Shown here in pieces: positions 6,737-10,791 of a stretch of 64,000 bases of DNA; positions within the stretch are counted from its first letter, which is position 1, and every line of letters begins with the position of its first letter. The notes beneath the pieces are model-generated. The model was not told where the DNA came from and searched no databases. It saw nothing but the letters and a program-made list of their open reading frames with translations. The translations under genes were made by a program, and so were the position numbers. The stretch is from the NCBI GenBank assembly GCA_964023285.1, contig CAXIEN010000102.1:2999528-3063527 (forward strand), given 5' to 3'. This DNA is from Larinioides sclopetarius. Taxonomy: Eukaryota.

Positions 6737-7396
6737 TTATGTCATAGTCAATTCCATAATGGCATTAACAATATCATTATTGTTATTTCGAAGGGCTTTG
6801 ATCGCTTTACTGCGAGAAACATTTGCTTGTGACATGACAAGCTCAATATCTTTGCCTTCCACAACAGTATCGTCATTTTCACCCTCTTCTTCAGATTCTT
6901 CTTCAATAGGTTGTGATGCGATGGTTTGAGATGGGCCATCTCCTCCAAGGCCGGCTGATTCTGGGGCTTTGAATTTCTCAGCAGCGGCCATCTGAGCTTG
7001 TTGACTCAAATCTTCGATTTTTGCTTCTCCGAAAACTATGTAAGTATCTCCAGCCGGGCTTTTGTACACATCAGGCTTAGTGATCACGAACAGAATGTTT
7101 TTGGACTTACGGATGGTAACTCTGGTAACACCCTGGACTTGCTTCAATCCCAATTTGGACATCAATTTTCTTGCTTTTTTCTCTCCTCGACTCTGTTTAG
7201 CTTTGCTAACCAATTCTTCACTTAAGCCAGCCATCTGAGCCATTTGGCTTGTGGCGGCACTTTGGGCAGCATCGCCTTCATCAGCTTCAGGAGAAGAATC
7301 ATCGCTATCCGATTCAGTATCGGATTGCTTACGATCAATTTCGGTTTTTTCGACTTCGTCGACAGCTAATACTTCGGACACACTCATTTGGGGCAT
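6737..7396 (-). CDS. NACA: Nascent polypeptide-associated complex subunit alpha (NACA), single-exon 219-aa ORF
   Basis: The six-frame ORF translates to a protein with a canonical NAC domain ([61 protein letters not shown]). It also has a C-terminal UBA domain ([36 protein letters not shown]). The ORF is collinear with vertebrate and insect NACA over its full length, runs from ATG to stop, and has an acidic N-terminus. Confidence 0.9.
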
Positions 7397-8046
7397 GGTT
7401 TCTTAACGCTTCAGATAAAAAGAACAAAGATTCCACTCTAGTTGAGAAAAACGTGCAATTCTTAAAATGGAGAAAAACAGGAAATGTACACTGTTGCCAC
7501 TCCCTTCTATTCTCCTAAGGTGAATATTATTGGAAAAGCGATTCTTACAGTTAAAACTACGATAAATATTCATATTGCATAATTTTTCTAGAGAGCATCT
7601 AATAGCAAAATATCAAGACAAAAAACAAGTAAATAATAAAAAAAATATTAAAAAAATAATTCTGTTTTTAGATGGCTATGATTAGGAAATATTAATGAGC
7701 TTCGCTATTGTTTCAGTAACCTACATGAAAATAAAAAGTGAGATATATAAAAGAGAGATCAAATTTTTGGAATCAAATCCATAGCATTGTTATTAAATTC
7801 ATAGAATATACATCTTTTATTGATTTTGCTTATTTGGATTTTATTCATTTAACTGTGACTGTTTTTAAATATTAAAGTAACCACAGGAACAAAATCGGCA
7901 AGGCGATCATTATTTGTAATCAATTATATGTTAGCCTGAAACATTTGGATTATGATCTTATGAAAAAAAATCACATGTTTTGAGTAAATGCTACATTTTT
8001 TCAATATTCTTAGAGTATTACAAAGTTTCATATTGAAATCGCAGCT
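7397..8046. promoter_or_regulatory. Putative shared/bidirectional promoter region between the divergent NACA and EMC1 genes
   Basis: A 650-bp AT-rich spacer lies between the two start codons of head-to-head genes. There is a TATATAAAAG box near 7745-7754 on the plus strand. A pyrimidine-rich CTTTGTTCTTTTT stretch sits about 35 nt upstream of the NACA ATG on the minus strand and may be a TOP-like start. No experimental evidence is available from sequence alone. Confidence 0.35.
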
Positions 8047-10791
8047 ATGACATTATCTGGTAATTTTAGTTTCCTCATCAATTTGACTATTCTTTTCATA
8101 TTAATTGCAATTGTTAATTCTCTTTATGAAGACCAAGTTGGAAAATTTGATTGGAGGCAGCAATATATTGGTAAAGTGAAATTTGCGTATATTGATCCTG
8201 CTATTGGAGGTTCACAGAAATTTATAGTTGCCACAGAGGAAAATGTTTTGGCCTGTTTAAGTGTACGCACTGGTAGTATTATATGGAGACAAGTTCTAGA
8301 AAGTGAAGATATAGGTGTAATTGATACTATCTCTGAAGAGGGTGATCTGATAACAATTAGTGGTGGAGGGCAGTTTATCCGAAGTTGGGATACAAACACG
8401 GGTGTTTTACTGTGGGAAACATCTTTCCCTAATGCACCCAGTACTGATGCATTACTTTACTTTCAAATTAGCTCTGCAACTAAGGAAATAATTAGAATTG
8501 AGATGTTACCTATGCAACATACCAAAGTTTCTGTGTATAGTTACACACGAGGATCCTTAAAAACTTCAAATATAATCCCCTCACCATGGTTTGATAAATC
8601 TTCTAACTGTAGTTTTATTTCCAATAACTACTTTGTTTGCATTGAAAGCAATAAGAAGAGCTTACAGCTCCTGTCAGTTAAAGATAGTGGTGCTTTTATA
8701 CCTGTTACTTTAGCAAGTCTGGGTATTGAAGTTGCACAAAATATTAAAGAAGTCAAAGCAGTAGCTTTACCATATCAAGGATCATCAGATAAACCATCAA
8801 TGGCATTACAGTTTGAAGATAGTGGAATGCTTTTGCAGATACATCCTCCTGGAATAAAGCTAATAAAAATTTTACCTAGCATAAGCAAAATTACTTCTAC
8901 TCTTGTAGATGATAAATTAGTTAAGTTTACTTTAGTACAATCTGGCAATATTTACAAAATAAAAGCTTTAGATATTGAATCAAAAAAAGAATTAGAAAAT
9001 TTAGACGGAACATTTTCTTTGTCAGAAGATCATGGAGACTTGGAACTATTCTTTATCCTTCCATACATTAAAAAAGATCATGGTGTTAGCTATAAAATGT
9101 TGTTACTATTTGAAGACCACTCAATTCTTGTGATTCATCAGCAGGGAAGATTAGTTTGGACCCGTGAGGAAGCTTTATCCAACATTGTTTCATCAGAAAT
9201 ATTAGACTTGCCACTGTCGGATACAGATGCGAATATCGAGCAAGAATTTGGACAACCAGATGCAAACCCTCTTAGTATGTTTTTGAACAGATTAAAGTCT
9301 CAGGTTTATTTATTGCAGTCATATTTATTACGTGTTCTCATTGGTTTCAAAGGTGACAGCGATCATGTTGGTGTAGATAAAAAAAGTCTAACTCGAGATA
9401 CTTTTGGATTGCACAAGATAATTGTTGTCATTACTAAACCAGGAAAAGCATTTGGAATTGACAACCTCTCTGGGTTAATTATTTGGAGCCATTTTGAGAA
9501 AGATCTCTCTCCTTTCAGCTTGAAAGAGAAACCTTATTTTTCGTTATTTGTCCAAAGAACAACAGCTCATTTTCCTTACCCTCCTGTTTGCACTGCTGTA
9601 GGAAGGCATGCCCATACTCAGCAGAGTCGCATCTATTCTTTTGATCCTATCACAGGTGTTACGATAGAATCAAAAGTTTTACAATATACTGTAATACAGG
9701 TGATGCCAGTTGGAACACTTAGTTATTATTTGCGAGAAATTCTTCTATTAGATTCAGACCTGAGGGTTCATGTTTATCCAGAATCTCATGATATATCAAG
9801 ACACAAAAATTCCCATTTTATGTTTACTGCAGAACCTGCTTTTGGTACCTTGATAGGTTACTCCATGGTCGCAGATAAAGCTAACAGTCTAAAAGCTATT
9901 GAAGCTTGGAAAATGAAGTTGCCTCAACCAATTATTAATGTAGCTACTAAAAGGCATTCAGAACATGTACACTCGCAAGGAAGAGTCATGGGTGATAGAA
10001 GTGTATTGTATAAATACTTGAATCCAAATTTGGCTGCAGTTTTCACTGAAGGTAATGACTCTATTCAAAAGACCTTCTGCAACCTTTATCTCATCGACAT
10101 TGTTTCTGGCCTGGTTGTTTACTCGGCCTCACACAAGAGGTGCAAGAGCCCTATTCACGTTGTTCATTCAGAAAACTGGATAATTTACAGCTACTACAAT
10201 GATAAATCAAGAAGAATTGAAGTTTCATCAATTGAATTATTTGAAGGAAAATATCAAAGTAATACTACAGCATTCTCTTCATTTGCACCACCTCCTTTAC
10301 CTCTTGTTGAGCATCAAACATTCATATTCCCATCAACTATTTTGACAATGGCAGATACAGTTACAGAGAGAGGAATGACTAACAAGCACCTTTTAATGGC
10401 TTTACCTTCTGGTGGAATTCTAGAGCTACCCAAAACTTTCCTGGATCCAAGACGTCCCATCACGCCTTTGCCGGAACATCGAGAAGAAGGTCTCATTCCT
10501 TATATTCCAGAACTTCCTATAATGTCTGAAGGCATCATAAATTATAATCAAAGTGTTTCAAGAGTTCGAGACATAGTCACTGCACCTTCTGGCCTAGAGT
10601 CAACTTGTTTAGTTTTTGTTCATGGACTTGATTTGTTTTATACTCGTATAACTCCATCAAAAACTTTTGACATTCTGAAAGACGACTTTGATCATTATTT
10701 AATTAGTGTAGTGCTACTAGGATTGGTAGCCTTGTCATATACTACAAAAAGGTTAGCAGCTCGCAAAACACTCAGAGCTGCATGGAAATAG
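8047..10791 (+). CDS. EMC1: ER membrane protein complex subunit 1 (EMC1), single-exon 914-aa ORF
   Basis: There is an N-terminal hydrophobic signal peptide, followed immediately by the conserved YEDQVGKFDWRQQYIGKVKFA motif found after the signal peptide in EMC1/KIAA0090 orthologues. PQQ-like repeats follow. The C-terminus has the DUF1620-type single TM segment (DDFDHYLISVVLLGLVALSYTTKRLAARKTLRAAWK). The ORF is continuous with no in-frame stops. Confidence 0.9.
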   Translation: MTLSGNFSFLINLTILFILIAIVNSLYEDQVGKFDWRQQYIGKVKFAYIDPAIGGSQKFIVATEENVLACLSVRTGSIIWRQVLESEDIGVIDTISEEGDLITISGGGQFIRSWDTNTGVLLWETSFPNAPSTDALLYFQISSATKEIIRIEMLPMQHTKVSVYSYTRGSLKTSNIIPSPWFDKSSNCSFISNNYFVCIESNKKSLQLLSVKDSGAFIPVTLASLGIEVAQNIKEVKAVALPYQGSSDKPSMALQFEDSGMLLQIHPPGIKLIKILPSISKITSTLVDDKLVKFTLVQSGNIYKIKALDIESKKELENLDGTFSLSEDHGDLELFFILPYIKKDHGVSYKMLLLFEDHSILVIHQQGRLVWTREEALSNIVSSEILDLPLSDTDANIEQEFGQPDANPLSMFLNRLKSQVYLLQSYLLRVLIGFKGDSDHVGVDKKSLTRDTFGLHKIIVVITKPGKAFGIDNLSGLIIWSHFEKDLSPFSLKEKPYFSLFVQRTTAHFPYPPVCTAVGRHAHTQQSRIYSFDPITGVTIESKVLQYTVIQVMPVGTLSYYLREILLLDSDLRVHVYPESHDISRHKNSHFMFTAEPAFGTLIGYSMVADKANSLKAIEAWKMKLPQPIINVATKRHSEHVHSQGRVMGDRSVLYKYLNPNLAAVFTEGNDSIQKTFCNLYLIDIVSGLVVYSASHKRCKSPIHVVHSENWIIYSYYNDKSRRIEVSSIELFEGKYQSNTTAFSSFAPPPLPLVEHQTFIFPSTILTMADTVTERGMTNKHLLMALPSGGILELPKTFLDPRRPITPLPEHREEGLIPYIPELPIMSEGIINYNQSVSRVRDIVTAPSGLESTCLVFVHGLDLFYTRITPSKTFDILKDDFDHYLISVVLLGLVALSYTTKRLAARKTLRAAWK

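What the first reader, a model, noticed from the sequence alone, without database searches (positions are those of the whole stretch)
6737..10791. Two housekeeping genes (NACA and EMC1) are both intronless and arranged head-to-head over a 650-bp spacer, next to a heavily intron-containing gene
NACA (219 aa) and EMC1 (914 aa) are each encoded by one uninterrupted ORF. The AASDH-like gene in the same window has many introns of several kb. In most animals EMC1 (and usually NACA) is multi-exonic, so a 2.7-kb single-exon EMC1 is notable. Both ORFs are intact, with signal peptide, TM segment, NAC and UBA domains all preserved. Their divergent arrangement suggests a shared bidirectional promoter, so these look like functional genes rather than dead retrocopies. 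Three explanations are possible. One is lineage-specific intron loss. Another is functional retrogenes that replaced the parental loci. The third is a genuinely compact gene pair. I could not see poly(A) remnants or target-site duplications flanking either ORF that would indicate retroposition.
Basis: partly seen in the sequence, partly recalled or inferred. Interest (0 to 1): 0.5.

Follow-up and report, generated by a model that had tools for sequence, protein, structure and literature searches.

The report
Ancient intronless NACA–EMC1 pair in spiders
In this orb-weaver spider the housekeeping genes NACA and EMC1 really are intron-free and sit head-to-head, but every spider examined shares the intron-free state, so this is an old lineage trait, most likely two ancient retrogenes that replaced their intron-rich parents, and not a peculiarity of this genome.

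Summary
NACA (6737-7396, minus strand, 219 aa) and EMC1 (8047-10791, plus strand, 914 aa) are intact single ORFs, head-to-head across 650 bp. A multi-exon AASDH/ACSF4-like gene lies nearby. The window is from the spider Larinioides sclopetarius.

EMC1 has an uninterrupted CDS in Argiope, Parasteatoda, Uloborus and Stegodyphus, and so does NACA.

The state is derived. Scorpion EMC1 has at least 19 coding pieces over 42 kb. Seven of its 16 resolved intron positions are shared with a millipede (1.1 expected by chance). Scorpion NACA is also split.

Both spider genes are single-copy in the annotated proteomes and strongly constrained (dN/dS 0.08 and 0.01). They are the working orthologues, not pseudogenes. 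The best reading is ancient retrogene replacement ("orphan retrogenes"). No poly(A) or target-site scars survive, and in-situ intron loss is not excluded.

The head-to-head pairing is younger. In Uloborus and Stegodyphus, NACA pairs with RPL23A instead, so the NACA|EMC1 pairing arose on the araneoid stem.

The spacer holds two separately conserved promoter-proximal blocks. Shared bidirectional regulation is plausible but untested.

Verdict: a new example of a known kind, of modest interest.

The parts
6737..7396 (-). NACA coding sequence: one uninterrupted ORF of 219 aa with NAC and C-terminal UBA domains
   Evidence: 99% aa identity to Argiope NACA, dN/dS 0.010. Exact protein is CAL1277467.1, Larinioides sclopetarius.
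6550..6736 (-). Probable NACA 3'UTR. Conserved with Argiope at 74-86% identity. AATAAA begins 137 nt after the stop (window 6599 to 6594 on the minus strand).
   Evidence: Conservation falls to 24-56% beyond about 6500.
7466..7503 (-). NACA upstream conserved block, about 70-107 nt 5' of the ATG: GGAGTGGCAACAGTGTACATTTCCTGTTTTTCTCCATT. Probably core promoter or 5'UTR; pyrimidine-rich.
   Evidence: 96% identity to Argiope in bin 7451-7500. Core TGGCA.C...TTT.C.G.TT..C.C..TT is invariant in five spiders, whether NACA neighbours EMC1 or RPL23A. The block's function is inferred.
7397..8046 (.). 650-bp divergent intergenic spacer between the two start codons (27% GC, CpG o/e 0.67). Its poorly conserved middle is at about 7651-7800.
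   Evidence: Equivalent spacers: 644 bp in Argiope, 440 bp in Parasteatoda.
7801..8046 (+). EMC1-proximal conserved region, the presumed EMC1 promoter and 5'UTR
   Evidence: 66-82% identity to Argiope against 46-56% in the middle of the spacer. Not alignable beyond Araneidae.
8047..10791 (+). EMC1 coding sequence: one uninterrupted ORF of 914 aa with signal peptide, N-terminal beta-propeller, EMC1_C domain and C-terminal TM
   Evidence: dN/dS 0.076 against Argiope. Exact protein is CAL1277468.1.
10792..11100 (+). Probable EMC1 3'UTR, conserved with Argiope at 70-84% identity
26801..27178 (-). Context only: last coding exon of the convergent, multi-exon AASDH/ACSF4-like gene. Further exons lie near 30.55-30.69 kb, 31.05-31.19 kb and about 44 kb.
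   Evidence: Pfam Beta-prop_ACSF4 positions 210-329 of 329, E=7.4e-38. tblastx to the Argiope, Parasteatoda and Uloborus AASDH-like genes downstream of EMC1.

Best explanation
These are the sole working NACA and EMC1 genes of the spider, not extra copies.

Shown: both have uninterrupted coding sequences in every spider whose locus was fetched (Araneidae, Theridiidae, Uloboridae, Eresidae). Their ancestors were intron-rich, because the scorpion and millipede genes are split at shared positions. Both are under strong purifying selection.

Inferred: on the spider stem, before the entelegyne families diverged, a reverse-transcribed mRNA copy of each gene became established and the intron-containing parent was lost. 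This is retrogene replacement, giving 'orphan retrogenes'. In ticks the same thing happened to EMC1 independently.

Shown: the head-to-head NACA|EMC1 arrangement is a later event. NACA lies head-to-head with RPL23A in Eresidae and Uloboridae and beside EMC1 only in araneoids. NACA kept a conserved 38-nt block about 70-107 nt upstream of its ATG through the move.

Inferred: the two genes are now transcribed divergently from the 650-bp spacer. Each uses its own conserved promoter-proximal block, probably within one shared nucleosome-free, constitutively active region. This is the classic way intronless copies gain or keep ubiquitous expression.
For: Identity and integrity.

Species and single copy. 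One Larinioides member per cluster, on one contig, and no second spider paralogue in the hit lists.

Intronless CDS in relatives (gene range equals 3 x (aa+1)): EMC1 in Argiope, Parasteatoda, Uloborus and Stegodyphus; NACA in Argiope, Parasteatoda, Uloborus and Stegodyphus.

Outgroups are split. Scorpion EMC1 spans 41.9 kb in at least 19 coding pieces. Scorpion NACA spans 9.7 kb. Millipede EMC1 has at least 16 pieces.

Introns are ancestral: 7 of 16 resolved scorpion intron positions coincide with millipede introns, against 1.1 expected and a maximum of 6 in 2000 randomisations.

The loss is not genome-wide. Neighbouring AASDH, RPL23A, WD40 and ERAL1 genes keep long introns.

Constraint: dN/dS is 0.076 for EMC1 and 0.010 for NACA.

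The gene tree follows the species tree, so the spider and tick losses are independent (tick intronless).

The pairing is araneoid-specific. NACA|EMC1 is seen in Argiope and Parasteatoda, and accessions or locus tags are adjacent in Araneus and Oedothorax. NACA|RPL23A is seen in Uloborus and Stegodyphus, and no NACA lies within 10 kb of their EMC1.

Conserved blocks.

Literature: retrogene replacement, with a single-exon gene sharing a bidirectional promoter with a neighbour (AmphiSYCP1/CHIC, PMC5803294). Retrocopies within 2 kb head-to-head of genes are co-expressed with them (PMC4772013). Retroposition is frequent in chelicerates (PMC11752866).
Against: No poly(A) remnant or target-site duplication flanks either gene. 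That is expected after divergence this deep, since synonymous sites are saturated between spider families, but it means retroposition is inferred and not observed.

No vacated ancestral locus could be shown. The scorpion EMC1 neighbour that I used as a marker, ERAL1, is itself intronless in the scorpion and multi-exon on another chromosome in spiders, so the adjacency is probably scorpion-derived.

No non-entelegyne spider genome could be examined, so the loss is dated only as before the Eresidae-Araneoidea split and after the scorpion split.

Single-copy status rests on annotated proteomes, not whole-genome searches.

No transcript data were available. TSS positions, 5'UTR introns and co-expression are unknown.
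Confidence: 0.65

Rival explanations
1. In-situ wholesale intron loss. Recombination between each gene and a reverse-transcribed copy of its own mRNA erased all coding introns at the original locus, with no relocation and no duplicate stage.
For: The end state would be the same: intronless CDS, single copy, no poly(A) or TSD scars, own promoter retained (NACA upstream block conserved). I could not demonstrate a change of locus, because the synteny marker test was confounded.
Against: cDNA-mediated loss usually removes a few adjacent, 3'-biased introns (established knowledge). Here all of at least 16-19 coding introns are gone from EMC1, including the 5'-most one at about aa 36, and the same holds for a second gene. 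Neither flank of spider EMC1 (AASDH; WD40 or NACA) matches the scorpion flanks (ERAL1; chordin) or the millipede flanks (eIF4G; indigoidine-A-like). NACA demonstrably changed neighbours within spiders.
Confidence: 0.22
2. Intact processed pseudogenes or young retrocopies, whose intron-containing parents are elsewhere in the Larinioides genome.
For: Only the intronless structure itself. A whole-genome search of Larinioides was not possible.
Against: Orthologous intronless copies occupy conserved positions in all four other spiders whose loci were fetched. dN/dS is 0.01-0.08 at dS about 0.4. No second EMC1 or NACA protein from any spider appears in the homology lists, and cluster membership is one sequence per species.
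Confidence: 0.02
3. Ancestrally intronless genes: spiders and ticks keep the primitive state, and scorpions, myriapods and others gained introns.
For: Two chelicerate lineages, spiders and the tick Dermacentor, are both intronless.
Against: Seven of 16 scorpion intron positions are shared with a millipede (1.1 expected). In the gene tree the scorpion is sister to spiders and ticks lie outside, so the intronless lineages are not each other's closest relatives.
Confidence: 0.02
4. Assembly or annotation artefact, such as cDNA contamination collapsed into the assembly.
For: One NCBI record for Trichonephila clavipes NACA carries the label 'UNVERIFIED_CONTAM'.
Against: The same arrangement, with matching flanks (AASDH-like gene downstream, conserved UTR-like and spacer sequence), appears in independent chromosome-level assemblies of different species.
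Confidence: 0.01

Closest known systems
Retrogene replacement / 'orphan' retrogenes (Krasnov et al. 2005 and Ciomborowska et al. 2013, PMC3548309, as cited in PMC5803294)
   Same: A single-coding-exon gene is the only copy in the genome. Orthologues in outgroups are multi-exonic. The gene is under purifying selection and performs the ancestral housekeeping role.
   Different: Relocation from the ancestral locus, and retroposition scars, could not be demonstrated here. Two unrelated housekeeping genes with this history have ended up adjacent.
Amphioxus SYCP1 retrogene beside CHIC (PMC5803294)
   Same: A roughly 3 kb single coding exon has replaced a large multi-exon parent. It sits head-to-head with a neighbouring gene across a short spacer that is predicted to be a bidirectional promoter. 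The arrangement is conserved across related species.
   Different: There one partner (CHIC) is an ordinary multi-exon gene that donates regulation. Here both partners are intronless, and NACA carries its own conserved upstream block, which it already had when paired with RPL23A. No expression data were available here.
Mammalian retrocopies that recruit bidirectional promoters (Carelli et al. 2016, PMC4772013)
   Same: [quoted passage not shown]
   Different: Those are mostly young duplicates that coexist with their parents. These are at least entelegyne-age replacements of essential genes.
Mono-exonic genes from frequent retroposition in ticks and other chelicerates (PMC11752866)
   Same: The phylum-level context is the same. 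Dermacentor EMC1 is also intronless. An ancient chelicerate retroposition event is proposed for SULT clade C, which includes Parasteatoda.
   Different: That work concerns expanded gene families with many, often unexpressed, copies. Here single-copy core housekeeping genes are involved.

Membership tests
NACA (nascent polypeptide-associated complex alpha subunit) | NAC domain followed by a C-terminal UBA domain, collinear with characterised NACA over its full length | tested here: met
   Pfam NAC 4.4e-24 (aa 72-127) and UBA_HYPK 4.7e-12 (aa 178-217). Residues 22-218 align to human NACA 22-215, E=1.9e-72.
EMC1 (ER membrane protein complex subunit 1) | N-terminal lumenal beta-propeller, the EMC1_C domain and a C-terminal TM helix, collinear with structurally characterised EMC1 | tested here: met
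   Beta-prop_EMC1_N 1.8e-45 and EMC1_C 2.1e-73. Alignment to human EMC1 6ww7_A covers residues 22-914, E=1.7e-200. A hydrophobic N-terminal signal-like segment and the C-terminal LISVVLLGLVAL segment are visible in the translation.
Orphan retrogene / retrogene replacement | Uninterrupted CDS where outgroup orthologues carry ancestral introns | tested here: met
   Spider gene ranges equal CDS length. Scorpion EMC1 has at least 19 pieces, millipede at least 16, and 7 of 16 intron positions are shared. Scorpion NACA spans 9.7 kb.
Orphan retrogene / retrogene replacement | No intron-containing parental copy remains in the genome | tested here: inconclusive
   One EMC1 and one NACA protein per spider species appear in the homology lists and clusters. 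This covers annotated proteomes only; the genome itself could not be searched for unannotated copies or relics.
Orphan retrogene / retrogene replacement | Located at a locus unrelated to the ancestral one | tested here: inconclusive
   Spider flanks differ from scorpion, tick and millipede flanks. However, the scorpion marker ERAL1 is itself a probable scorpion retrogene, and deep synteny is generally eroded. No vacated site was found.
Orphan retrogene / retrogene replacement | Retroposition scars: a 3' poly(A) remnant and flanking target-site duplications | tested here: inconclusive
   None found above chance. With synonymous sites saturated between spider families (pS 0.69-0.78), scars are not expected to survive, so their absence neither supports nor excludes membership.
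Orphan retrogene / retrogene replacement | Functional, that is, under purifying selection | tested here: met
   dN/dS is 0.076 for EMC1 and 0.010 for NACA between Larinioides and Argiope; 0.06-0.11 and 0.01-0.03 across families.
Bidirectional-promoter gene pair | Head-to-head orientation with less than 1 kb between gene starts | tested here: met
   650 bp between start codons; 644 bp in Argiope and 440 bp in Parasteatoda.
Bidirectional-promoter gene pair | Arrangement conserved in related species | tested here: met
   Conserved across Araneoidea but absent in Uloboridae and Eresidae.
Bidirectional-promoter gene pair | Divergent transcription initiating in the shared spacer, with correlated expression | not testable with these tools
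   No RNA-seq or CAGE access. Conservation shows two separate proximal blocks and not one central element.
Processed pseudogene | Disabling mutations or relaxed constraint, with a functional parent elsewhere | tested here: not met
   ORFs are intact, dN/dS is far below 1, and no other copy is detected.

The most novel reading that the evidence does not exclude
In chelicerates, retro-derived copies of core protein-biogenesis genes may be repeatedly captured and retained at the divergent promoters of functionally linked housekeeping genes. Three cases were seen here. NACA first sat beside RPL23A, which encodes uL23, the tunnel-exit ribosomal protein near which NAC docks (established knowledge, not tested here). 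NACA then sat beside the ER insertase subunit EMC1 in araneoids. In the scorpion an intronless ERAL1 sits 311 bp from EMC1. On this reading the pairing is selected for co-regulation of co-translational targeting and insertion machinery, and is not a neutral accident of where retrocopies can be expressed.
Probability: 0.1. Interest if true: 0.55.

Novelty: new member of a known kind. Interest (0 to 1): 0.3.

Why it matters
The result gives two clean, datable examples of essential single-copy housekeeping genes whose intron-rich form was replaced by an intronless one in a major animal lineage. Spider genes otherwise have long introns. The result also shows that a 'bidirectional pair' can be assembled secondarily, since NACA swapped partners from RPL23A to EMC1.

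The practical value is threefold. It warns annotators not to flag such genes as contamination or pseudogenes. It supplies rare-genomic-change characters: intronless EMC1 and NACA for spiders, and NACA|EMC1 adjacency for Araneoidea. It also offers a compact 440-650 bp candidate constitutive bidirectional promoter for spider transgenesis. It does not challenge any current concept.

Tried and rejected
1. 'Empty ancestral site' test. I took the scorpion EMC1 neighbour ERAL1, found its spider orthologues and fetched their loci. Spider ERAL1 is multi-exon, on another chromosome, next to a GPR143-like gene, with no EMC1 relics or chordin nearby. Because scorpion ERAL1 is itself intronless, the adjacency is probably scorpion-derived and the test is confounded.

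2. Was NACA inserted into a pre-existing WD40|EMC1 spacer, or moved by a larger rearrangement? tblastx of the Uloborus WD40, RPL23A and PNPase flanks against the araneoid and Stegodyphus flanks found nothing informative within the 6.7-10 kb available.

3. TSD and poly(A) search: nothing above chance.

4. Search for the spider NACA upstream block in the scorpion locus: absent. The scorpion has a probable 5'UTR splice acceptor 31 nt before its ATG, so its first exon lies elsewhere.

5. Rfam scan of the window at gathering thresholds: no RNA genes.

6. Literature search for prior reports of intronless EMC1 or NACA, or of retrogene replacement in spiders: none found in the held library. This does not prove that none exist.

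7. Rejected explanations: pseudogene, ancestral intronlessness and assembly artefact (see rivals).

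
Full report
OBSERVATION

NACA is at 6737..7396 on the minus strand (219 aa). EMC1 is at 8047..10791 on the plus strand (914 aa). They diverge across a 650-bp spacer, 7397..8046.

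Pfam confirms a NAC domain and a C-terminal UBA domain in the first ORF. It confirms the EMC1 N-terminal beta-propeller and the EMC1_C domain in the second. Both proteins are collinear with the human proteins of solved structures: EMC1 6ww7_A at E=1.7e-200, aligned through to the C-terminal membrane helix, and NACA at E=1.9e-72.

The intron-rich neighbour is also real. An AASDH/ACSF4-type gene runs on the minus strand. Its last propeller exon is at 26801-27178, with further exons near 30.55-30.69 kb and 31.05-31.19 kb and a PP-binding exon near 44 kb. Its introns therefore span several kb and carry Tc1/mariner-like remnants.

Only the coding sequences are shown to be uninterrupted.

SOURCE

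Both proteins are exact matches to consecutive records of the bridge spider Larinioides sclopetarius: CAL1277467.1 (NACA) and CAL1277468.1 (EMC1). The species belongs to Araneidae, Araneoidea, Entelegynae.

I fetched the genomic loci of orthologues and compared each called gene range with 3 x (aa+1).

- EMC1 is uninterrupted in Argiope bruennichi, Parasteatoda tepidariorum, Uloborus diversus and Stegodyphus dumicola (confirmed by end-to-end tblastn).
- NACA is uninterrupted in the same four species.

These species represent four families spanning the Entelegynae. The intronless state is therefore a lineage-wide trait and not a peculiarity of this genome.

POLARITY

- The scorpion Centruroides vittatus has an EMC1 spanning 41.9 kb in at least 19 coding pieces, and a NACA spanning 9.7 kb.
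- A millipede EMC1 has at least 16 pieces separated by short introns.
- Seven of the 16 scorpion intron positions I could resolve coincide with millipede introns on a common alignment. Chance expectation is 1.1, with a maximum of 6 in 2000 randomisations. The introns are therefore ancestral and the spider state is a derived, complete loss.
- The loss is gene-specific and not genome-wide. The flanking AASDH-like, RPL23A, WD40 and ERAL1 genes of spiders all keep long introns.
- The tick Dermacentor andersoni also has an intronless EMC1. An NJ tree of EMC1 follows the species tree: spiders with scorpion, then ticks, then millipede and insects. The tick and spider losses are therefore independent. 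This fits the reported high rate of retroposition and of mono-exonic genes in ticks (PMC11752866).

FUNCTION

Between Larinioides and Argiope, dS is 0.47 for EMC1 and 0.375 for NACA, while dN/dS is 0.076 and 0.010. Values across families are similar.

No second EMC1 or NACA from any spider appears in the homology lists. The 90% clusters contain one sequence per species.

These are the working orthologues. The processed-pseudogene reading is rejected.

MECHANISM OF INTRON LOSS (INFERRED)

All of at least 16-19 ancestral coding introns, including the 5'-most, are absent from two unrelated genes, in a genome whose other genes keep long introns. The most economical explanation is retroposition followed by loss of the parent, known as 'retrogene replacement' or 'orphan retrogenes' (PMC5803294; PMC3548309).

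I could not find retroposition scars. Flank-to-flank direct repeats are no longer than in shuffled sequence, and A-runs are at the background rate. This is expected, because synonymous sites are saturated between spider families.

I tried to show a vacated ancestral locus using ERAL1, which lies 311 bp head-to-head with the scorpion EMC1. The test is confounded. ERAL1 is intronless in the scorpion. In spiders it is multi-exon, on a different chromosome from EMC1, and next to a GPR143-like gene. The adjacency is probably a scorpion-side insertion.

In-situ cDNA-mediated intron erasure therefore remains a live rival, at roughly 0.2.

THE PAIRING IS YOUNGER THAN THE INTRON LOSS

- In Argiope and Parasteatoda, NACA lies head-to-head with EMC1, with spacers of 644 and 440 bp, and the AASDH-like gene lies downstream.
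- Adjacent accessions or locus tags indicate the same arrangement in Araneus ventricosus and Oedothorax gibbosus.
- In Uloborus and Stegodyphus, no NACA lies within 10 kb of EMC1. There the intronless NACA lies head-to-head with RPL23A, with spacers of 510 and 1281 bp. In Uloborus it is about 97 Mb from EMC1 on the same chromosome.
- Eresidae is outside both Uloboridae and Araneoidea. NCBI's lineage agrees, and published phylogenomics does too (my own knowledge). NACA|RPL23A is therefore the older arrangement, and NACA|EMC1 arose on the araneoid stem.
- Whether that move was a DNA rearrangement or a second retroposition could not be resolved.

THE SPACER

Conservation between Larinioides and Argiope is bimodal.

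- The NACA-proximal bin 7451-7500 is 96% identical, as conserved as the coding sequence.
- The middle, 7651-7800, falls to 46-56%.
- The EMC1-proximal 7801-8046 rises to 66-82%.

The NACA block lies at window 7466-7503 on the minus strand: GGAGTGGCAACAGTGTACATTTCCTGTTTTTCTCCATT. Its core is invariant in all five spiders, whichever gene is the neighbour.

NACA therefore carries its own core promoter or 5'UTR element. The pair looks like two closely apposed promoters and not one shared central element. It still meets the operational definition of a bidirectional pair (head-to-head, under 1 kb). Shared open chromatin and co-expression are plausible by analogy with mammalian retrocopies (PMC4772013) and AmphiSYCP1/CHIC, but remain untested.

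COMPARISON AND NOVELTY

The closest known case is amphioxus SYCP1. It has a roughly 3.2 kb single coding exon, the parent is lost, it sits head-to-head with CHIC across a predicted bidirectional promoter, and the arrangement is conserved among congeners.

The present locus is another instance of that known phenomenon, with two twists. Both partners are intronless replacements, and one partner has changed neighbours. I found no prior report for EMC1 or NACA in spiders in the held library.

Classification: new member of a known kind.

Interest is modest (0.3). A specialist would find the case tidy but not surprising.

The most novel reading not excluded is that such retro-derived housekeeping genes are selectively retained next to functionally linked partners: NACA beside uL23/RPL23A, then beside EMC1, and ERAL1 beside EMC1 in the scorpion. 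I give this about 0.1 probability.

Noticed in passing
L005 8559-9689 (-) against L011 10001-46559 and L012 10001-17384: A reciprocal case. Mitochondrial GTPase ERAL1 has an intronless CDS in the scorpion Centruroides vittatus and sits 311 bp head-to-head with the multi-exon EMC1. In spiders ERAL1 is multi-exon (36.5 kb in Uloborus, 7.4 kb in Argiope) and lies beside a GPR143-like (Ocular_alb) gene on another chromosome. This is probably an independent scorpion retrogene replacement at a divergent promoter.
   Followed up: partly
L008 1-10654 (Uloborus) and L009 1-10657 (Stegodyphus): In non-araneoid spiders the intronless NACA is head-to-head with the multi-exon RPL23A (uL23), with spacers of 510 and 1281 bp. 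uL23 lies at the ribosomal tunnel exit where NAC docks (my own knowledge). This may be coincidence or co-regulation.
   Followed up: partly
L006 10001-12847: The EMC1 of the tick Dermacentor andersoni is also a single uninterrupted ORF (948 aa). No called gene lies within 10 kb on either side. The gene tree shows this loss is independent of the spider loss.
   Followed up: partly
L003 1-9491 (-) and 10001-12751 (+): In Uloborus, EMC1 is head-to-head (509-bp spacer) with a large multi-exon WD40-repeat gene. That gene is not detectable within 6.7-10 kb of the araneoid or Stegodyphus EMC1 loci, so EMC1's upstream partner has changed more than once.
   Followed up: partly
window 28667-29896 (-) and 41312-42085 (-): Tc1/mariner-like transposase remnants (HTH_29/HTH_SB and weak DDE_3 matches) lie inside introns of the AASDH-like gene. 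The first coincides with the only GC spike in the window (0.398 at 28-30 kb).
   Followed up: partly
window 8047-10791 against 6737-7396: CpG observed/expected is 0.34 in the EMC1 CDS, 0.78 in the NACA CDS, 0.67 in the spacer and 0.57 window-wide. This could reflect germline gene-body methylation of EMC1 but not of NACA.
   Followed up: no
window 6737-6742 (-): Larinioides NACA ends ...MELTMT*, one residue longer than the ...MELTM* of the four other spider NACA genes aligned here. The difference is a trivial C-terminal extension.
   Followed up: no
cluster 2 (PRD24325.1): NCBI labels the Trichonephila clavipes NACA record 'UNVERIFIED_CONTAM'. Given the conserved spider locus, the flag may be a false alarm. 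I did not check the reason for it.
   Followed up: no
window 61151-62002 (+): Two adjacent open frames of 133 and 138 aa. The longer one (61589-62002) was scanned and has no Pfam match; the shorter was not scanned. Neither matched anything in the fetched spider loci. They may be a repeat or a TE fragment.
   Followed up: no
L010 9940-10000: The scorpion NACA has a polypyrimidine tract and 'ttttacag' 31 nt upstream of its ATG. This suggests a 5'UTR intron, so its promoter lies outside the region compared.
   Followed up: no
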